Below are positions 16,285 to 29,900 of a DNA stretch of 64,000 nucleotides, piece after piece (the first letter of the stretch is position 1; every line of letters begins with the position of its first letter). Below the pieces are notes generated by a model that ran no database searches, was not told the origin of the DNA, and saw nothing but the letters and a program-made list of their open reading frames with translations. A program made the position numbers and the translations under genes. Origin of the DNA: Paramecium tetraurelia (Eukaryota). The DNA lies in NCBI GenBank assembly GCA_000165425.1, contig CT868013.1, positions 124,001-188,000 on the forward strand, in the 5' to 3' direction.

Positions 16285-17176
16285 TCACAAAATAAACACA
16301 ATGTAGATAAAAGCAAAAATAAACAAAATTAAGAAAACCTTTAATATTAACCCTCTATTAGAACTTATTCGTTTATGTGATTCTTATAATTCTTTGCGTC
16401 CTTTACTAACATTCAATTAAGCCTCATCAGTGTATTTGTCAATTCTCTCAATCATGGTCTCTTATAGTCTCACCATGGTTCCCACTCTTTGGAATACTCC
16501 GGCAATATCATTCAACATAGATTCGATTTTCTGCATGGAAACCAATTTCTCCTCATTCTACTTTTATTCGAACATTTAGATCGTTTAATGATTGGCCTCC
16601 TCTTCAGTCTCATTCAATTTTTAGTATTTTTGATTAAACCCAACTCTCTTGATTACTCTATCCCTTTCTCCATTCAATCGATTCCTTTTCTCTTCCTATT
16701 ATTTAATCCTTTAGGTATGGCTCTGCACCAACTATAAATTCAATCCTAAACTCAAATACCTTTTTGAAGGAATCAGATGTTTTTAAGGCTTTTTGCTGAA
16801 CAAAATCAAAGATTGATTAATGGAGATCATTATTCAATTGGGTTTTCAGTTGATTTATATGGATATGTATTTAACCAATGTCATCCTTAACTTAGGAGAG
16901 AATTGTGTTCAATTTGTAATCTTAGTCATTAAATAGCCCAGTCGATTGAGATGCTTAAATAATAGGATCAATATATACTAGTATGGAATTCCTGGAGTCT
17001 CTCATTGGCTGTATCTACTTTCTCCTTGGCAAGTTTAGCTGTAAGTAGAAATTCTAATTAAAATAAAGATCCTTGGTACAATTTGGTTATTCTCTTTTGA
17101 TCGCAACAAGTTTAATGTGTACTTTGGATAGAAATTTCTGAGTGATATCTGTGTATTGGGAACTTACAATTTCCAT
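16285..17176 (-). CDS. Syntaxin 5 / Sed5-type Qa-SNARE
   Basis: N-terminal DITQKF (Sed5 RDRTxEF-like). SNARE motif MQKIESMLNDIAGVFQRVGTMVRLQETMIERIDKYTDEAQLNVSKGRKEL, then SSNRGLILKVFLILFIFAFIYIVFIL-stop (tail anchor). Confidence 0.88.
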
Positions 17177-17250
17177 AACGTGGCAATTTATAATTTCTTA
17201 CTTTTATTTAATTATAATTCTAAAAGAACATCAATCGAATCAAAATTTTG

Positions 17251-17926
17251 TCACTTATAAATTAGAATAAAAAGTAAATCTATTAAATACAACGAGAAGC
17301 CTAACTAAACTAAGACAAACCAATAAATTTTAATGTGCTATCCATCTTTTCATAAATCAGTCATTCTACTTTGTTATCCGACTCTCTTAATATGGTGTTC
17401 CTTATACTTGTCTTTTCCTATAGAATATTCAAAAATGGGTTTACTATTAAAACTGGCCATGTTCATTGTACTAGAATCCTCTGGATGACTATAACCGACC
17501 ATGCATTGATATCTATTATGGTGAGAATCATGAGGAACCCAACCAAATTCTTCATATTGATTTCTGAACAATTCTTCTTGAACATTCGAAGCTAAGGCAT
17601 CCTTCATTCTCATTCATAAGAATTCCTCATTTTTGTTTGGGAATAGATTCCTAATTTATAATCAAAAATGATACATCAATAATAAGGAACCATATAAGAG
17701 TACACAAATGGCGAATATAAACCCCACACATTAAGTAAATCCACATGGCTAAGGCACCCTAGGTATTGGTTAAATTTTACATCTGAGTTCAAGGTATATT
17801 CTTACAAATCTCTTTAGGCTTCGTATGTGTTAAATGAAGGAATCTGTGAGAAGTACTTTTGGGTAGATACCAATCATGTTGGCGAAGGCTGGCAAATCAT
17901 AAAAGATATCATATACTTTGACTCAT
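17251..17926 (-). pseudogene. Small hypothetical membrane-protein gene with apparent in-frame TGA (disrupted gene or sequence error)
   Basis: Typical short introns present. Reading NLFPNKNEEFL-TGA-MRMKDALASNVQEELFRNQYEEFGWVPHD; upstream exons cannot be joined in one frame by hand. Confidence 0.4.
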
Positions 17927-18488
17927 TTAAAAAAGATTAATTTCACCTATAATTGTACATTATAAAATGGGCCTAACAAGATCCTTTAAATATAATTATA
18001 ATTTTTCCCTTAAAACAAAGAAATAAAGAAGATACTGACCTAATTTTTTGGATTTTCAACTGATAGACTTAGTTTGTTAAAGTACAGGATTGCAATCCTA
18101 ACGTATTCCAATAAAATACTCCACAAAAATTAATATCCAAATAGAATTTAATTTCTTCAAAATTGTATTCAATTAGTTTGACATCCCTTTCGGTATTTTA
18201 GTAACAATTAAATTTCATCCATTATAAAAAGTGATCTTAAGGGATGGGAAATTCTCCAGAACACCAAGTTTGTAATATTAATAAAAATATTTAGATGATT
18301 TTAAAATTGCTATAATAATTCACAAATGTTGGTAATAATTAATTTGATGCACCAAAAACCCTTAATATAGAACTAAGTGTAGTTAGATGACTCTCATTTC
18401 ATTATCTGTTGAAAAGTAGTACAATTCAATAAAATACTTAAATAAAATAAGTAGCTTTAAATTAAATAATTATATTTAATGTATCAAT

Positions 18489-21400
18489 TCAATCTCTCAT
18501 CGTAAATGCTGGAAGTTCCAAAGATAAGATTGCTGATTGATTAAAATGCAATGTCCAGATCTTCACTATAAACAGATTCAATTAAAAACCCTTTCTAACT
18601 AAGTCTACATAAGTCATATAATTCATCTAGACAATCAGGCTTCAAACTCAAGCCTATGCCAATAACAATCAATGAAATCTAAGGTCTCTTACTCGTAAAT
18701 TTCTTCATCCTCTCATATGTGATATTGCTCAAGTTATCCTCTCCATCGCATAACACAACTATCCATTGTTGATTGTCTTTCTTTACTGCCTTTTCGTGTA
18801 TTGAATAAGCATGTAATACAGCTGATAACATGGCAGTCATTCCCTCTGCCCTAATGTTCTTAGATCTCTCAATTGCACTTCTCAAATAGGCTGTATTCTC
18901 TGATTTAGAAGTTAAATCGAAAATAACCTCAATGTTTTGATTGAAACGCATATAACTGATTCTGTCTTAATCCTGAAGATAATTGTCAAAGATTTTGAGA
19001 ATGCCACTATTGATATATTGTAAGTAAAATACTTGATAGCCAATTCTTTCTTGATATTCTCCATGGAACCAGAATGATCAATTACAAATACAATGTCATT
19101 GTTTTTCTTGATCTCATTTAATTCTAACAGTTACTCTATCTTTGGTACTTTATAAAGTAGATTCTGTGATTAGAATATTTCCTTTAATTATTTGAGACAA
19201 TTAATTCTAATTTCTGGATCATAAAACTTACTAGTTTCTAAACATTCAGTAAAGATGAATGCTGCCTTTTTGATGCTATCATATCTCTTAATAAATAATC
19301 CCTTCTCATACAAAATCCTCTATTTCAAAATACCTGGAGGAATGGGGAAAGAATCATTTACCTAAGCATCAGATCTGTCATACGAATTCTCATATTTATC
19401 TGATAGTTACTCCGCATTCGAAATCTCAGCCAATGCAGAGTTGGAATCCTCTAAATTCAGTAAGACTTTGCATTATAAGATATGACTTATGATTTATCTG
19501 TATAATAAACCTTTATTATCCTTTTGATCCAGAGACAATGTAATATTCAAGCATTCCAAACTCTCCTTATACAATTATCTCTTCTCCTCGATACTCAAAC
19601 TCTAGTTGTTGTCAGCATATTCACTAAGTATATATTCTCAATTACATCAGTACATTAGCTAAAGAGAAGTTCCTACTTGAATAGATATCTTCTAATTGGG
19701 ATGTCTAGATCTCTCTCTCTATCATTGAAACCCTTTTACTACCAGATTGTGAGAATCTGGATTCACCTGAAATATCTATACTGATTCCCTTTTGTAATCG
19801 CTTTACTTCAAGTAATTTGATATCTCCTAAAAGCATCTATATATTATCTATCTATACTCTTAAATCGTCTTCACATAGTGCAATGGATTCTCTATAGCAT
19901 TGAATTGCTTCGATGTATCTTTGTTGTCTTCTGTGAATGTTACCAATATTGTTCAAGATCATTCCCATCCCTTTGTTGCTTTTCATCTTTTGGAACAGCG
20001 CTTTCCCTTGAGCATATTTAATCAATAAAGATGTATCATCTCCTTCGAAGTACCGGTCATTAGAGAAGTTCAATACTGTCACTAATTAATCCAAGGCATC
20101 ATATAGAAGATTGACTTCCAGAGAGCTTTATCTAAAGTTCGAGTAAATCTGGATTGCTAAGGTATCTTATGCAATCTATTGTTTTAAATTGTCATACATA
20201 CCAATTCAAGTTTATGAGTCAAATCATTAATGGGTTTGGAAACACTCTGGATAATCCTATATGATATGTACCAGGCTATGACGCACATGATTACTGCTAA
20301 GGGGATGGCAATTGTCATAATGTTCACAAATGTCTCGTTTTGTATTCCACTTGAAAACTATTCAAAAAATATTGATAAAAAGATTACAAAATCCAGAAAT
20401 TGTTTGTAGTAATCAATATCATATTGTATCAATATGCTACTCAATTAAAATAAAGGGTTTATAGAATCATTAATAAATGTTTCTTATTCATTTTACAATA
20501 TTTGTTTCATAGTTGACACATTAGACTTGACTGAACTTACTAATTAAATATATTGAGCTTCTTAATTGGGATAAACGATATCATAAAATAATTTTAGAAA
20601 TTAGTCTGAATTTTAGTTTGAGTTGTTAAATACAACATCTATCAAATTTGGAAATCCATAATTTTTTACGATAGATCCATTCACATATTAGGTGACAGTA
20701 TTAGTAGTAAAAATGTTTAAATTCTGATTACAAAAGAAAGAATAAATTTCACCCTGATACTCAATATTTTAATATAGATTATTAACAAACACCTACTGAC
20801 CTAATGCGTTAATTCCTAAACAAACGATTCCCATAAAATTGTTATCACTCCCTAAAAGAGACACACAACTTTCCAAATCAGTTTCAGAAGTCGGTTCAAT
20901 TAAGAAGGCTGTATGCATATTTGATTAGTTGAATGACTTTTTCATCTGCTGTAAGGGAGACTTAGAATAGAGGTCATCGTTTTCAACAAATGGATATTAA
21001 ACAAACATTTGATTTGCAAAATGATAGTAAATATAATTCAATTAGAAATTACTATTATAAAGAATTTGTAAAATCTGAAAGGTTTAAGCAATTTATTACA
21101 ATTACGAATATTGTTCTACACTTAAATCACCCAATTATGGATTGAAAGTCATTAAATTATTTACATCCACTAATCCCCATCCTATACAATATAAACATTG
21201 TTCTGTATTTTTATCATAATTAGGTATAAATTAAGATGACGTTGAGAGCGGAACTATTTAAGGTACTTAAAGGGAATAGAGATCTAGATATTGAGACTCC
21301 TATTATAGAGTCCAGAACGAATGAATAATCTATGTTCTAATTGTGGAAATAGTTTGAAATATAGATTATTAAGAGTTTCCCAATAATGTGGTTAATGCTA

Positions 21401-21646
21401 GGTGCATAAATTAGTTGTACATGTTTAATAAATATATTGTTGTTAGGCTAAACTATTTGCTCCTTGATTTGCCCAATATTCAGAAAGTAACAAAATAATC
21501 AAAATGGAAAAGAGGGTTGTTAATAGGATTCCAAACATCAAAGGTACTAATACTGTTATTAATATCTTATGAAGTTTATTTGATTTTTGTGATTTTCTTT
21601 TGAATTTGAATTTGTCCTCTTTCTTTGAATGAACTTTCCTTTTCAT
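18489..21646 (-). CDS. Membrane receptor-like protein: TM-Cache-like ectodomain-TM-HAMP-TPR-vWA
   Basis: TM1 ILITVLVPLMFGILLTTLFSILIILL; ectodomain ending SLLGSDNNFMGIVCLGIN; TM2 IMTIAIPLAVIMCVIAWYIS; HAMP SVSKPINDLTHKL...LEVNLLYDALDQL; TPR GMILNNIGNIHRRQQRYIEAIQCYRESI; vWA DIVFVIDHSGSME...T...WIVVLCDGEDN. Confidence 0.8.
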
Positions 21647-21696: not shown

Positions 21697-23715
21697 TCAA
21701 TCTTGTTAATCGATATTTGAAATAAAACTAATATCTTAATCAAGCATTTATTTCTTGCTCTTATTACCATCAATTTAAGAAACGTCAACACTGAATAAAT
21801 CAAAATGCTCGGATTGCTATTTCCTTTTGCAAGTCAATTGACCCAATAATTACTAGATTTCATTTTTGGTCTAAAACTGGTAGAATATATAATTACAATG
21901 GCCACAACTGATTATTTCGGGGGTTTGGTAAAATTGACCTGACTCTCATTTGAAAAATAAGAAAATGGATTACTGTAAGATCTTTTCTATCTTTTTATTT
22001 ATGACAAAGGATCTTCCATCTATTTAATTAATTGTTTCTTCTTTACGTTACTTATCTATAAATTTAAGTGATATCATACATCAAAATGTTAAAAGAATTC
22101 ACTGGACATTGACATAATGAAATTAACGCATTCTTCTCTAGTCATATCATAGTATGAGGTCTTCTTCTGCTGCATTTGATTTCTAACAAGAGGTTTAGAG
22201 TCAGCTCTTGCTGTTTAACAATAAGGAGCCTACTCAAAATTATCATCTGTATTAATCTCTAATTCTTTTAATTAGAGCTTCTTCATTTGAACTTGAGGAA
22301 GCACTTGATGAATTTGTTTTTGATTTGAATTGTTTAATTGGACTGAGATATTTTCTTTTGGTTCTGTATCATCCAATTTACCATCAAAATTCGATAATTA
22401 CTAGGAGTGCCTGGCGAAATAGGATGGTTAAGTGTTGACTCGTTCATTATTGATTCTAGGACTAAATATGCCAACAGCTATATCTTATTCTTGATTCAGC
22501 TATATAGAATTGAATTATTTTCTAGTTTTGAGTTATTCCATATAATTTTAATTTTGTTTCTTGTAAAATTGCAATTCTGCCATCAATTACTCATTCTTTT
22601 AATCTTTCAATTGATTTGAACGTATTAATAATTCATTGTTGTCTTGAATCTAATCATATTTCTTGACTAATTCATTATGCAATTTGCTAATATATATATA
22701 ATTATTTTTTTCCTTTTCAAATAACTCTTTGAATCCTTTAACCATCATTTCCATCTTATGCAACTTCTCTTGATAAATCATCCTTTCATTTTTGCTCAGA
22801 TACTTCAATTGCTATGGTTCTGGAGAAAACCCATAGCCTAAACTTGCTGGTTCCATACAAGTTCTTAATGCATTTGTTCTAGTCTACCTCTTTAATTTTG
22901 TAACTCCTTGTTCAATTCAAGATTGTTATCTGTTTTATCGAGATATTCATTATACACAAAATCTAGAATATGAAGACTTGATACCCTTCATATTTTAATA
23001 GGTCACCTAACTTCTCAGTACAATTCTCATTTTGAATATTTCCCTTTTCAGGTGATAATTGACTTCTCTCAAGGCATTGTTGCTTTCTGAAACACTCTGA
23101 GCTTCCGCTGTAATTTTCTGCAAGACTCCTCTGACACTTTCCAACTCTTCATGCAATTTCAGATTTTATTCTGAAGGTGTCACCACCTCTATAAGTTTAA
23201 CTAATTGACCTTCCTTCTCCTAAATTGGCTTCATTCGTTCTAACTCCTATATGGCATATTCCTTATCGTGAATGTTACGCTTCAATTCAATTAGCTTATA
23301 TTCTAAATCACTAATCAAATCTTTGTAATAATTTGTTTGCTCCTCAGCAATCTACTCCTATAACAGTATTTTGGTTTTGCAACTGACTACTCACTTTTTA
23401 TTGTTTGGTTAAGGCCTCCATTAATTTCTTATTCTCCTCATTTAAGAGCTTTAGCCAATTCGGGATTTGAAGCTTTACTCACTTGAAAGCGTGCTTGCCG
23501 TCCTTTGTTTGCTTTGAAATCATTAATTTAAAAGTGTTACCTTAGGCCTATTGTTGTCCAAAGCCAAAGTCATCGCCTGCTTATTTAATTTCAATGAATT
23601 CTCTAAATCGGTGATGTAATCTTATAGCAAAGCTTATTCTCCTGAGAGAGAGGTAGTGTATTTTCGATTACTGACGATTCGTCACAAACTCGTTTACCTC
23701 TGTGCCCAATATCAT
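21697..23715 (-). CDS. Coiled-coil hypothetical protein
   Basis: Long Q/E/K/L-rich frame (ALLQDYITDLENSLKLNKQAM...) with several short introns; TGA 21697-21699. Start approximate. Confidence 0.6.
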
Positions 23716-24669: not shown

Positions 24670-26519
24670 TCATTCCTCAATTAAATTCAGTAACTATCAA
24701 ATTATTAATTATTTCTAATTCTTTTTAATAATCCACATATGTCTTCATCTTTCATTGTAATTTCTAACCATTACTGTTTATATTTAATATTATTAATATA
24801 TCCAAATAATCCTTTAAATAGAGCTTTGATTAATCCGCCTTAGCTTAAATTGTGAGAATTCATATTTAAATTAATTAAACTCTTATTTAAACAAGACTGT
24901 GTTTTCCTTAAATTTCAGTTGGTTAATGAAATCATAATCACTAATTGCTACACAGTAAAGTTAGCATTTTGGACTTAGATTTCAGTGATTAAGACTCAAA
25001 TATAGGTAAGATTATAAGCTGTTTTGTAACATAATTAAAATTATTAGAATATGGGAATAAAAGCAGCGAATTAAAAAAGTTCTGTGTTTTATTATTTATT
25101 ATAAAATCATTGCTACTTTTGCTAGAATTGAGGAACGATTTCATCTTCTGATGATGATAGAATTTGATTTTTGCACATAGTTTCTGGGCCTGTGGAACTA
25201 TTGCTACTGGTTGATGAACAAGATTGAGTTTATTTATATTGCAAGTATAGTTTAAATGTAACGTTTTGGAACATCTTGTCAAAGTTGTCAAATAAAACTT
25301 TTAGGAACCTCACAGATTGACCTACCTGTTCTAAAGATGAAATGTCATTGGTTTGAGCTCTCATAAAGCAAGGGGCAAATACAATTGCCAAGTTGTTCAT
25401 ATTCATGTGATTAAACTCAGAATAATTGCCAACACATAACAGAAAGCTCACCATAACTGTCAACAACACTCTATTTAGACTAGGCAACTTGCCAAATACT
25501 TCTTCAAGTAGGACAATCTCAGTTTGAGGAGTTATTTCTAATAATTTTTTAATAGCAACTTACATACTATCTAATTACAAATAAATTTTAAAGTGTTTTA
25601 TGGAATTAACGGATCTGGGAGTGAAGTGAAGAATTTCTTGATCATACTACAAACAATTCGGACATCCTCAACAACATTCAAACATTCATAATTCTCATTA
25701 TTCAACAATGTGTAGAGTTGTTCCTCCTCATTTATTGATCCTTATTTTCTGAATATGTCTGGTTTTAGAAATCTATCTGCATTCGTTACAAAGTAGGAGA
25801 GCAGACAATCAAGAATTACAGGGATTCCAAATTGATTTAATTTTTAGTTGGTCAAATTTGAACCAAAAGAACCTCCTGTTTATTTAACTAATTAGGCTGG
25901 CTCCATTTAATCAATGGACGAAGTTTGATTCGGGACCAGATTCATCCAACTGGCTTGAAAATTGGGTATTTCTAACAGATCTTCTACTCTTACAATAAGT
26001 TTAAGCATACTCATAAATATATTTGGTTTTCTTCTGCCACAGACTCCATCTCTTTGAAGTTTGAAGCCACAGGCGAGTTCTGATTAACAAACTTGCCTGA
26101 AATAAGTAAAGGTATTTGAGGTGAGTGTAGTATTTGCTGGGAAGTTATTTCAAAATCTTGCGAAATCTTGACAACTCATTGAGTCCATTATGTTTTGCCA
26201 CTATATATACAATGGTATAAGTACTAATTATATTGCCATCAAATACTTTTGATCTATTTTATTATCTAAACTATTTATAGTGTGATAAGTGATCCTAGTA
26301 TTGTCAAACTGATCTTAAATATTCCCATTAAATAGAAAGCATACATTTTATTATTCAACACCTACACTCCAGATCTAAAATACCTGAAATTTATAAAAAG
26401 TTGCTTTTTTCGATATCAGACAAATTTGTGTATTTAGCTATTTGTAATTTGTTTTGGTAATCCTAATCCAATTATGGCTAATATTTTTATAGTGCCTATT
26501 TAACATCTTTCGTATTCAT
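24670..26519 (-). CDS. RhoGAP with N-terminal BCH/CRAL-TRIO-like domain (ARHGAP1-like architecture)
   Basis: RhoGAP motifs FGIPVILDCLL...DIFRK and NHMNMNNLAIVFAPCFMR. Upstream LKQLPSKYYTHLKYLYLF resembles a BCH domain. Confidence 0.8.
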
Positions 26520-26979: not shown

Positions 26980-29900
26980 TCATATTTACTTTCTTCTATT
27001 TACTTAAATTTCCGGCGAAACCTTATTTCTCTTTAGTTGACTTTTTGTCACTCGTAGAAGCATCATTTTGTGCCTAGCTCTTTGGATGGTTTCGAATTTG
27101 TTTATTATGGAGACATATGCCTTGTTTCTCTTGTATTTCAAAAATTTCAGTATAAATTAAAAGGGGTAAAACATGTACATCTAAAATCTATTTAAAATTT
27201 ATTATTGCCAGTTTGATTTATTTTTATTAATTTATTCTATTATTCTAGTAATATTGTGTGTAGGGAAATAGTATTCATAGTTATAGATTTAATCTAGGTT
27301 TGTCTCAGATTAATTGAATAATTGAATATAGAGATATGTGATTTCCTTTACTGGTTTGATGAGTTCAGGATCATCAATGCATTTTAGCATCTGATTATAA
27401 ACTATTTTAATGCTTTCAGCATGCATCTATTCAAAATTCTTAATCCTATTTCTAAAGGCATCGACCTCATTATTGAATATGGCTTCATAAGTGGATTATT
27501 CTATGGAGGGTTCATTTAAACTAGATAACAGAGAAGGACTCTTGGTATTCTACCTCAAGAATTTGTGATCATAAATAGATCCTACTTTGTAGATTCGTTT
27601 GGGATTGTACTTATAACTGGGTTTATGTTGCTTATCTATTCTTGCATCAGACTGCACCTCTTGGCCAATTTACTTCACTGCCCTTTGGTGACCAGAAGTA
27701 ATAAGATATTCCTCTGAGACGTGGAATACTTTGACAGAAGGCAGCTATTCTTCATTGCCACCTAGAAAGATTACATTGGCTTCAGGGTCTTATTCTACTA
27801 CATGCTGACATTTTTATTAATTTTAAATGAGTTGAGGATTATCTAAAGCGAAGATTCTAGCACATTCTTAAACAAATAACATCTCTGCTCTTGTCATGAT
27901 TGGTTTCTCAATTACTCTTCGTTTACGGTGCATTCTTTCTTAATTCTAATTATAGATGTGTCTCTTGAGCACTAATTCCTTATTGGGAATCAATTGCACT
28001 TAAGAACATTGATCCAATTGATGATCAGTTTTATTGCAGACAGGACAAAATTACCCTTCCTTAATTAGATCCTAATCTAAATTGAGAATCAATTGATCTC
28101 TCAATTAACAGTACTTTTAGAAATCTTCAGGGAAATCTTTTAATGTTTCCAGGAAGTCTGATTTTGATAGCATCAATAAACTCACATATCCAGCTGCTTT
28201 GAATAGTTCTCTATCTTGACTCTACAATAAAAAGTCTTTGACACATATGAATCTTCCATGACTGATATGAGAATTGATCTTTGATCTCTGTTTCCCATCT
28301 CTATGTTAATATAGCAATATTCCTTATTCAATATAACATAGATGATATTCCCCATCAAACTCAATTGAAAATGTGTTTTAAGGTTGTATAATCTTTCTTT
28401 TAATTGATTTAAAGAGAGCATTGCGAAACTCAACACTGAAATACTTCTGTAAAAACTCACATTTCAAAATGAATATCTTGTATGCCTATTTATCTAATTC
28501 TTCCTTCAATTCATCTGACAGCTATCCCAGTAATTCCTATTCCATTTCCAAATCTACTTCGTCGTCTTCCTTCCATCGATATGTCAAGTACTCCTTGATT
28601 CTATTGTTTTATTAATGATTTCAATTACTGATATTATAAGGCAAATGGAATCTCGCGCTCCCTCATATACTTATTTATCACTCTCATCTTTTTATTTCTC
28701 TCTACTTAGTTCTAGGTGATATCGTCAATTATCCCACCTATGAAGTTTACACTATAAGAGAACCACAAACAGGCACATAGAATAAAAATTATTGTAACTA
28801 TTTTCTCTATCTAATTTTAGGGCACATTATCTCCGTATCCAATTGTCAACATTGTGACTATTGCAAAATAAAATGCTTCCAGATACTGTGATGACCATCT
28901 CAGATCTCCTAATCTCTTAGTAATAATCCACGAATCCTCTCTATCTATGCTGCTAGACCAAAACCATATGCAACTGAATAAATGAGCTATATAAATTAAA
29001 GACACCAAAAACTTTATTAAACCAATTCTACCCCTCTAAGGTCGAGTAAGATATGAGATCTAATCTACTTTCAAAAATGATTCATAGACATACTTAAGTT
29101 AACTCAGAAGAAGAATCAAAATTAAATCATAATCTCCTTCAGGTAAATAGATATTGATTAACAAAATAAAGGTTAGACATTGATCAATTAAAATAGATCT
29201 ACTTGTTTACACCTTGATTATTTCCCAACGATCTGCTATGGCTTTACCCGTTTTATATGTGATTGTATTTATTTTAACAAAATAATCCAACTATAATACG
29301 ATAAATATCAGTGTGGAAAATATCCTGTCTTCGGATGCCAAAATTCTTGAATTAAACGAAATTTCTAAAGGTACCAAAAATACCAGTATTCCTCTAATGA
29401 AGGTGACGAAGAAATCCCAGTACATCTTTAACATGCTTTCTGGTTAAATTAATGGTATGCAAGAGATAACCCATAACAAAAATTTGAAAATCTGTCTTTG
29501 CGTATACTCAAAAGATTCCTTGAATTCCTCAAGTGTTCGTCGCTTAATAATTTATTAAGTAAATATTCTTTGAACATTTATGAATGATAGTTCCTTGCGC
29601 TAAAACTATTTGGCATATGCTATCACATTTAAACTACAATTAGAGTAAAGCAATACTTTTCGGATGCTTTATCACTTATTAAATTTAAAATACTGCAATT
29701 TAAAGTCTCTAGTTTTCGTCTTTTTTATCCAACTTTTTCTAAAAACCTTCGAATAAAAAAAAAGGTCATCAGGCTTGATCCAGTATTCTTAGATGTTTTA
29801 TTGAATTGAGTTTGCATCTCTGATAATGAAATTGCATCGTTCTAGAGAAAATCTTACTCGGGTTTGGGAGTATATGTGATATCTGGAGTTTTATCTATTC

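What the first reader, a model, noticed from the sequence alone, without database searches (positions are those of the whole stretch)
18489..21646. Bacterial-style sensor (Cache-HAMP) wired to a cytosolic TPR-vWA output
Seen: TM, Cache-like ectodomain, TM, HAMP (SVSKPINDLTHKL...EVNLLYDALDQL), TPRs and a C-terminal vWA with intact MIDAS (DHSGS, T, DG). Known: Cache-TM-HAMP is the input module of bacterial chemoreceptors and histidine kinases, normally followed by a kinase, MCP or cyclase domain; in alpha2delta proteins vWA is extracellular. Here vWA would be cytosolic and no catalytic output is visible. Inference: an uncharacterised chemoreceptor class signalling through metal-dependent protein binding; the best candidate for a new system in this window.
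Basis: partly seen in the sequence, partly recalled or inferred. Interest (0 to 1): 0.75.

Follow-up and report, generated by a model that had tools for sequence, protein, structure and literature searches.

The report
Enzyme-free Cache receptor shared with Asgard
This Paramecium gene encodes one subunit of an apparently undescribed membrane sensor that has only protein-docking domains on its inner side; the family is also found in Asgard archaea and may have been inherited from the archaeal ancestor of eukaryotes.

Summary
This is one transcribed Paramecium gene (code 6, six tiny introns, 1004 aa): TM, ectodomain, TM, HAMP, TPR, cytosolic vWA with an intact MIDAS. No enzyme domain was found.

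It belongs to a large family (1179 hits) found in ciliates, Trimastix, giant-virus contigs and Asgard archaea. Many members carry a clear dCache_1.

First, this copy's ectodomain is a degenerate dCache (hhalign 79%) that has lost all five amino-acid-pocket residues. Second, Asgard and viral homologues sit beside an output-less dCache-HAMP partner, or are fused to it, and Paramecium keeps an unlinked family of such partners with intact pockets.

Best model: this is the output subunit of a heterodimeric amino-acid-type receptor that signals by metal-dependent docking. Binding, location and ligand are inferred, not shown.

In a paralogue-rooted tree the non-Asgard members nest among Heimdallarchaeia (AU p=0.011), which suggests inheritance from Asgard archaea.

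This scan noted the Asgard pair before on other DNA. My searches found no paper describing the family.

The parts
18484..21646 (-). Whole gene, 7 exons (21646-21421, 21397-20388, 20357-20202, 20175-19858, 19836-19646, 19623-19033, 19006-18484), 1004 aa under code 6
   Evidence: 87.6% identical to P0007; stranded RNA reads with first mate on + only
21485..21571 (-). TM1 (aa 26-54) after a Lys/Arg-rich cytosolic N-tail; missing from the database model P0006, which starts inside intron 1
   Evidence: hydropathy 2.8; RNA-type contigs reach 21639 and lack intron 1; present in P0007 and P0008
21398..21420 (-). Intron 1, 23 nt, GT-AG
   Evidence: left out in contigs of runs X3 and X6
20322..21484 (-). 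Extracellular or luminal domain, degenerate dCache_1
   Evidence: hhalign 79.5%, E 1.5e-5; Atlas features; no Pfam Cache hit
20811..20960 (-). Decayed ligand pocket: the family YxxxxRxW and downstream Y and D positions are all replaced (0 of 5)
   Evidence: alignments; coordinates; motif definition from PMC8915833
20358..20387 (-). Intron 2, 30 nt, in frame; if retained it adds a spurious third hydrophobic stretch
   Evidence: absent in P0007 and P0008, retained in P0006; hydropathy 1.5 if retained; not covered by RNA contigs
20259..20321 (-). TM2 (aa 425-445)
20080..20246 (-). HAMP-like linker (aa 450-496), interrupted by intron 3
   Evidence: NF008025 match E 6.7e-6; collinear with Pfam-HAMP homologues; TM2-HAMP 95% and 78% identical to P. 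sonneborni and P. bursaria
20176..20201 (-). Intron 3, 26 nt
   Evidence: required for the frame; spliced so in P0006 and P0007; not covered by RNA contigs
19864..20073 (-). First TPR block; Pfam TPR_1 at 19959-19864
   Evidence: E 1.1e-7
19837..19857 (-). Intron 4, 21 nt, in frame
   Evidence: absent in P0006 and P0007; an RNA-type contig ends its match at 19836
19624..19645 (-). Intron 5, 22 nt
   Evidence: left out in an X3 contig
19100..19623 (-). Second helical/TPR-like block leading into vWA
   Evidence: aligns with TPR repeats of Asgard homologues
18487..19099 (-). Cytosolic vWA domain with intact MIDAS: DxSxS at 19079-19065, T within 18843-18829, D within 18750-18733; contains intron 6 (19032-19007, 26 nt, seen spliced in RNA-type contigs)
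   Evidence: Pfam VWA; MIDAS columns; coordinates; intron

Best explanation
The gene encodes the output subunit of an ancient two-subunit, enzyme-free membrane receptor. It most likely pairs with an output-less TM-dCache_1-TM-HAMP partner encoded elsewhere in the genome. The partner's intact amino-acid pocket binds the ligand outside the cell or in a vacuole lumen. The change passes through the paired TM2 and HAMP helices and re-orients the TPR-vWA arm, whose MIDAS site binds an acidic residue of a cytosolic protein through a divalent metal. SHOWN: architecture, topology by hydropathy, transcription, family membership, the decayed pocket, the intact MIDAS, and an output-less family with intact pockets that classes with the Asgard partners. 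INFERRED: dimerisation, the ligand class, HAMP signalling, the metal-dependent docking, the effector and the cell location.
For: End-to-end homology to Heimdallarchaeia receptors: 823 columns, E 3.9e-40. P0007 finds two collinear blocks in 5 of 5 Asgard genomes tried. A second dCache ORF lies next to the receptor in 27 of 33 Asgard or viral loci; 12 of these are closed ORFs with no TPR-vWA, 2 loci have a Cache-less HAMP pair, and 4 are cut at an end. Four-TM fused forms exist, and in 7 of 7 the N half scores as partner and the C half as receptor. Paramecium output-less proteins prefer the partner HMM in 5 of 5 (e.g. 41.6 vs 20.9 bits), while P0007's N part prefers the receptor HMM (24.7 vs -6.8). 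They fall in the partner clade at 100 SH-aLRT in 2 of 3 trees. Their AA motif is complete in 5 of 7 database or own models and 4 of 5 residues in the other 2, and complete in L085; the window protein has 0 of 5. Sequence is held harder inside than outside: ectodomain 79% and 31% versus TM2-HAMP 95% and 78%. MIDAS is intact in 33 of 34 Asgard or viral locus rows, the exception being truncated.
Against: In one tree the output-less proteins joined the Paramecium receptor ectodomains (87, flagged as long branches meeting). Their HMM scores are low (30-45 bits), and 1 of 16 receptor N parts (P0011) was misclassed. A viral partner used as query found nothing in G000. The partners are unlinked in Paramecium and which one pairs with this gene is unknown. 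The ectodomain is only weakly recognisable as dCache: hhalign against two small ciliate profiles gave 0.6% and 0.2%. Nine of nine paralogous loci lack a complete DxSxS, so the metal site is dispensable in most copies. Expression was low (65 and 147 reads).
Confidence: 0.45

Rival explanations
1. Homodimeric receptor. This chain senses its own non-amino-acid ligand with a remodelled dCache pocket and signals through TPR-vWA; the output-less proteins are decoys or act separately.
For: The ectodomain keeps full length and conserved cysteines across three Paramecium species. Many ciliate full-length homologues keep 4-5 of 5 motif residues (13 of 27 rows), so receptor chains can sense. No partner gene lies beside this gene.
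Against: Constant pairing and fusion of the two subunit types elsewhere. The ectodomain drifts fast (31% to P. bursaria).
Confidence: 0.25
2. The vWA is not a passive dock. It is the metal-dependent adaptor of an AAA+ remodelling enzyme, or has a catalytic role of its own, so the receptor gates an enzyme rather than a signalling scaffold.
For: Beyond MIDAS, several vWA residues (D842, D918, S921 of P0007) are at least 90% invariant in 84 sequences. Sub-threshold matches to cobaltochelatase and Mg-chelatase vWA. That cytosolic MIDAS vWA domains often serve MoxR or chelatase ATPases is recalled, not from a call.
Against: No AAA+ gene among the ORFs listed at L012 or L009 or among the scanned neighbours of L089, L100 and L103. 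The best PDB matches are ITIH4, archaeal vWA and ANTXR2, which are binding domains.
Confidence: 0.15
3. In Paramecium the sensing function is lost, and the protein acts as a ligand-independent membrane anchor or scaffold for its TPR-vWA arm.
For: 0 of 5 pocket residues, strong conservation only on the cytosolic side, low expression.
Against: TM2-HAMP, the signal relay, is among the most conserved parts (95% and 78%). Intact-pocket partners are kept in many copies.
Confidence: 0.12
4. The locus is really two genes, or the vWA lies outside the cell.
For: No RNA piece bridges 19837-20509. P. bursaria is annotated as two adjacent proteins, P0008 and P0009. P0006 retains a hydrophobic 30-nt stretch.
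Against: Continuous frame with canonical introns. P0007 is a single chain. Most full-length homologues are single two-TM chains. P0008 stops in mid-TPR.
Confidence: 0.03

Closest known systems
Bacterial dCache_1 / dCache_1AA transmembrane receptors (PctA/B/C, Mlp24, Mlp37; dCache histidine kinases and cyclases)
   Same: TM-dCache_1-TM-HAMP input. The family profile hits PDB 6iop, 5ave, 5ltx and 3li8 at E 1e-21 to 1e-27. The AA motif is complete in 22 of 29 non-ciliate, non-Asgard rows and 3 of 3 viral rows.
   Different: No MCP, kinase, cyclase or phosphatase output; TPR-vWA instead. A second, output-less subunit type exists. This copy has lost the AA motif. In the architecture table of PMC8915833 all 15 TPR occurrences go with a cyclase, kinase or SpoIIE domain and none with vWA.
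alpha2delta and CACHD1 (eukaryotic dCache_1 + vWA proteins)
   Same: Same two domain types. The family profile matches their dCache parts at E 1e-30 to 2e-28.
   Different: There the vWA is extracellular and inserted into dCache. Here the dCache is uninterrupted and the vWA lies after TM2-HAMP-TPR. The family vWA matches alpha2delta only at 1.5e-5, far below ITIH4 (4.7e-16). PMC8915833 section 12 states that all eukaryotic dCache_1 proteins they found have the inserted vWA; this family does not fit that.
Asgard dCache-HAMP-TPR-vWA receptor pair
   Same: Same architecture, MIDAS and partner; homology tested here.
   Different: In Paramecium the subunits are unlinked and expanded (at least 10 receptor loci, 14 matches to one partner), this receptor's pocket is dead, and the partners carry the amino-acid-type motif with Arg, where 15 of 16 Asgard and viral partners have D, E or Q.
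Cytosolic MIDAS vWA adaptors (archaeal vWA proteins 8s05/5a8j, chelatase D subunits, ITIH-type vWA)
   Same: Intact DxSxS-T-D; nearest PDB matches of the family vWA.
   Different: Those are not tethered to a transmembrane sensor through HAMP and TPR (their functions are recalled, not from a call).

Membership tests
Methyl-accepting chemotaxis protein / histidine kinase / cyclase receptors | MCPsignal, HisKA-HATPase, GGDEF or cyclase output domain | tested here: not met
   None in the window exons, P0006 or P0007, nor among the listed Pfam hits of 30 homologues. The UniRef name 'histidine kinase' on Tetrahymena P0012 has no kinase Pfam hit behind it.
dCache_1-HAMP transmembrane receptors | dCache_1 ectodomain between two TM helices | tested here: inconclusive
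   Met for the family (10 of 30 above the Pfam cut-off, 7 more below it). For this protein only indirect: hhalign 79.5%, Atlas, weak HMM score. No fold was obtained.
dCache_1-HAMP transmembrane receptors | HAMP directly after TM2 | tested here: met
   NF008025 sub-threshold match 414-508, E 6.7e-6; collinear with Pfam-HAMP members. No direct Pfam HAMP hit.
dCache_1AA amino-acid sensors | Y121, R126, W128, Y144, D173 (PctA numbering, PMC8915833) | tested here: not met
   0 of 5 in this protein; met in output-less P0184, P0185, P0187, P0188, P0191 and L085.
alpha2delta / CACHD1 | vWA inserted within an extracellular dCache_1 | tested here: not met
   vWA is C-terminal, after TM2, HAMP and TPR.
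MIDAS-type vWA | DxSxS, T and D residues | tested here: met
MIDAS-type vWA | Metal-dependent binding of a partner's acidic residue | not testable with these tools
   needs biochemistry
Asgard-eukaryote dCache-HAMP-TPR-vWA family (undescribed) | Collinear homology from TM1 to vWA | tested here: met
   823 columns, E 3.9e-40; 5 of 5 Asgard genomes; ciliate clade 97 SH-aLRT
Asgard-eukaryote dCache-HAMP-TPR-vWA family (undescribed) | Output-less dCache-HAMP partner present | tested here: inconclusive
   Not adjacent. An unlinked family is present and classes with partners, with one conflicting tree. Physical pairing was not tested.

The most novel reading that the evidence does not exclude
[quoted passage not shown] It would be a new eukaryotic signature protein and a second, archaeal route of dCache into eukaryotes. 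In Paramecium the labour is split between many sensing partners and a few output chains, this gene being the only found copy with a working metal site, which makes it a candidate hub for amino-acid sensing in a classic behavioural model.
Probability: 0.3. Interest if true: 0.92.

Novelty: categorically new. Interest (0 to 1): 0.76.

Why it matters
Known Cache-HAMP receptors end in an enzyme or a chemotaxis signalling domain. This family ends in TPR plus a MIDAS vWA and appears to work as a pair of unequal subunits, so it would be a new output logic built from known domains. It does not fit the published view (PMC8915833 section 12; PMC4822843 passages) that eukaryotic dCache_1 proteins carry an inserted vWA and came sideways from bacteria. 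The paralogue-rooted tree instead mirrors the placement of eukaryotes next to Hodarchaeales (PMC10307638, passages). Asgard archaea are hard to grow (recalled), whereas this copy is transcribed in a ciliate with RNAi and behavioural assays (recalled), so the system becomes directly testable.

Tried and rejected

Pfam found no Cache or HAMP in this protein. A PDB sequence search with the Paramecium-only profile found only TPR and integrin I domains.

A special link to alpha2delta through the vWA was rejected: alpha2delta ranks low.

A search of G000 with a viral partner protein found nothing; the partners were found with PF02743 instead (5 sub-threshold matches).

No RNA holder was listed on record for the stretch. 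The three intron confirmations come from contigs whose RNA status is a guess, though the missing introns fit RNA.

Bacterial members were not found. The GTDB pattern scan gave 41 loci: 9 near-full-length, all archaeal by title, and 32 partial matches, 31 of them confined to the TPR region. P0024 found 0 of 251 genomes in the phylum of a Bacteroidetes genome and 0 of 201 in the phylum of an Isosphaeraceae genome at 1e-40, with only 3-4 candidates scored per genome, against 23 of 121 in the Asgard phylum. Other bacterial and archaeal phyla were not sampled.

A search of this scan's notes by sequence and by this genome gave nothing.

Literature: ten searches returned no paper that describes the architecture. 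Most subscription journals are outside the library, and supplements of bioRxiv papers, including 10.64898/2026.10.28.762692, could not be seen.

Full report
GENE. The window reads in ciliate code 6 with 21-30 nt GT-AG introns. The exon-2 product is 100% identical to a database protein labelled Paramecium tetraurelia, P0006. The gene runs 21646 to 18484 on the minus strand. A six-intron model gives 1004 aa, 87.6% identical to the single-chain P. sonneborni protein P0007. Contigs of two RNA-type runs lack introns 1, 5 and 6. Stranded raw reads (65 and 147 laid) all have the first mate on +, which fits a minus-strand transcript at low level. No laid piece bridges 19837-20509. P0006 lacks TM1 and retains the 30-nt intron 2; P0007 and P0008 show that both are annotation errors. 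This matters for topology: with intron 2 spliced there are two TMs after a basic N-tail, so TPR and vWA are cytosolic.

DOMAINS. Pfam gives TPR and VWA only. MIDAS is complete. HAMP rests on a sub-threshold PmrB-model match (E 6.7e-6) and on homologues. The ectodomain is not recognised by Pfam. Profile comparison with 29 Asgard-type ectodomains gave 79.5%, E 1.5e-5, against a maximum score of 19.0 in 30 shuffles versus 44.9 observed; two small ciliate profiles gave no match. A family HMM built without Paramecium scored P0007 at 0.5 bits (shuffle maximum -1.2, n=300) and P0008 at 11.3 (maximum 0.0). Atlas features of residues 55-500 matched dCache_1/HAMP clusters at 0.95-0.96. I read it as a degenerate dCache_1. 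No fold was available to confirm this.

FAMILY. phmmer with P0007 over 1.84 billion representatives gave 1179 hits at E up to 1e-3 and 305 at 1e-10; only the best 150 were seen. Most long hits are two-TM proteins with a DxSxS motif. Of 30 scanned, 10 pass the dCache_1 cut-off and 6 the HAMP cut-off, and no kinase, MCP or cyclase family was listed. Of 30 clusters looked up, the named ones are Tetrahymena (2), Stentor, Fabrea, P. bursaria, Trimastix and Ca. Hodarchaeales; most have no taxon. A GTDB pattern scan gave 9 near-full-length loci, all archaeal by title (7 Heimdallarchaeota, 1 Kariarchaeota, 1 uncultured archaeon), and 32 partial matches. P0024 matched 23 of 121 Asgard-phylum genomes at 1e-40 and 0 of 251 and 0 of 201 genomes of two bacterial phyla (few candidates scored per genome). 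Three giant-virus bins carry it. Several metagenome loci are broken into exon-like pieces. The Paramecium-only profile aligns to the Heimdall-type profile over 823 columns, E 3.9e-40.

IN THIS GENOME. At least 10 full-length loci were found (a lower bound; two weak hits were not followed). The other 9 all lack a complete DxSxS, so this gene is the only found copy with an intact MIDAS. Conservation is higher inside than outside: ectodomain 79% and 31%, TM2-HAMP 95% and 78%, vWA 96% and 61% to P. sonneborni and P. bursaria.

POCKET. The amino-acid motif (five residues, PMC8915833, passages) is complete in 22 of 29 rows outside ciliates and Asgard, 3 of 3 viral rows, 6 of 44 Asgard-clade rows and 5 of 27 ciliate-clade rows. 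P0007, P0008 and P0130 did not align there and were dropped. From the Paramecium protein has 0 of 5.

PARTNER. The lead came from earlier scan notes and was tested here. A second dCache ORF adjoins the receptor in 27 of 33 Asgard or viral loci, and 12 are closed ORFs without TPR-vWA. PF02743 found five sub-threshold loci in G000. None had a TPR-vWA match in the 7 kb fetched. One gives a 485-aa TM-dCache-TM-HAMP-like protein, P0184, which matches 14 places in G000; I opened only its own. With HMMs built from Asgard and viral rows only, 5 of 5 output-less proteins prefer the partner model, 15 of 16 receptor N parts prefer the receptor model, and 7 of 7 fused proteins split partner-then-receptor. 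Sensor-region trees put them in the partner clade at 100. In one search they joined P0007 and P0008 at 87 with a long-branch warning, which vanished when those two rows were left out. Their motif is complete in 5 of 7 models and in L085; L086 pieces were partial and L087 and L088 did not align.

ORIGIN. On the cytosolic half (66 rows, quick IQ-TREE, unrooted) ciliates form one side at 97-98 and Asgard at 98. On the sensor half, rooted by the partner paralogues (39 rows, careful; the Paramecium rows and 6 others were left out), non-Asgard receptors form a clade (99/96). That clade groups with Hodarchaeales P0024 and unnamed P0025 (100/96), then with four Heimdall-type loci (100/96). Asgard monophyly is rejected at p-AU 0.011, though the group was chosen after seeing earlier trees. 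Caveats: one Heimdallarchaeota genome has two pairs, so hidden paralogy is possible; the partner half is unresolved; the cytosolic tree keeps P0024 inside a Heimdall group rather than next to the non-Asgard clade; most non-Asgard rows are unnamed. The pattern fits vertical inheritance as placed by PMC10307638 (passages), but transfer from an Asgard lineage, or spread by giant viruses, is not excluded.

MECHANISM. Most likely (0.45) this is the output chain of a heterodimer. The partner binds an amino acid, the paired TM2-HAMP relays the change, and the TPR-vWA arm docks an effector through its metal site. All steps after architecture are inferred. Rivals: homodimer with a new ligand (0.25), adaptor of an enzyme (0.15), ligand-blind scaffold (0.12), misread locus (0.03).

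LITERATURE. PMC8915833: passages, section 12 and supplement searches. It describes only vWA-inserted eukaryotic dCache_1. Its architecture table has no dCache-TPR-vWA. It lists one Heimdallarchaeia genome with the motif, five ciliate occurrences (two rows seen) without architecture, and a Tetrahymena TPR protein as an undiscussed BLAST hit. PMC4822843, PMC5847659 and PMC10307638: passages. PMC10343646 and bioRxiv 10.64898/2026.10.28.762692: term searches of the main text, no Cache or vWA; the preprint's supplements were not seen. All others: search listings only. Ten searches found no description of the family.

VERDICT. The feature is real, and the protein fails the defining test of each described family considered. 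I class it as categorically new at the level of receptor class; its domains are all known and its function is unproven. Interest 0.76.

Noticed in passing
window 16285-17360 (-): Downstream neighbour is an intron-split gene with a SNARE domain and C-terminal TM, probably a syntaxin (Pfam SNARE E 3e-10); no sign of a link.
   Followed up: partly
window 22074-23500 (-): Upstream neighbour is a coiled-coil-looking gene; the part scanned had no Pfam hit.
   Followed up: partly
window 21398-21646 and 20358-20387: The public model P0006 misses exon 1 (TM1) and retains a 30-nt intron. P. bursaria's orthologue is split into two adjacent models (P0008, P0009).
   Followed up: yes
L002-L008, L082, L083 (G000 C125, C17, C672, C47, C13, C20, C18, C26, C336): Nine paralogues with broken MIDAS, most with long low-complexity inserts between TPR blocks; they may be pseudo-output or regulatory chains.
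   Followed up: partly
L086 (G000 C57:30000-37000): Two output-less dCache-like genes appear to lie in tandem.
   Followed up: no
L009-L011, L089, L103: Giant-virus bins and virus-like contigs carry both subunits with a complete amino-acid motif in the receptor (L009-L011); neighbours of L089 and L103 include a tRNA synthetase, glycosyltransferases, MscL and a collagen repeat protein.
   Followed up: partly
L012 6678-8312: The Heimdallarchaeota partner ends in a cysteine-rich, zinc-ribbon-like tail; neighbours in this locus look like an acyl-CoA synthetase and an aminotransferase by eye, with no obvious arginine decarboxylase.
   Followed up: no
P0041, L072, L073: Family variants in which the Cache ectodomain is replaced by a 7-TM region or is absent while HAMP-TPR-vWA is kept, so the output module can take other inputs.
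   Followed up: no
P0123, P0152: Proteins of about 2100 aa with at least four TM segments, longer than the double fusions; the extra N-terminal part was not analysed.
   Followed up: no
P0012: The Tetrahymena thermophila member is named 'histidine kinase' in UniRef but shows only TPR and VWA in Pfam.
   Followed up: partly
window 25107-26149 (-) and 26980-29671 (-): By eye, a RhoGAP-like gene and a cyclic-nucleotide-gated K channel-like gene (labels recalled, not scanned).
   Followed up: no
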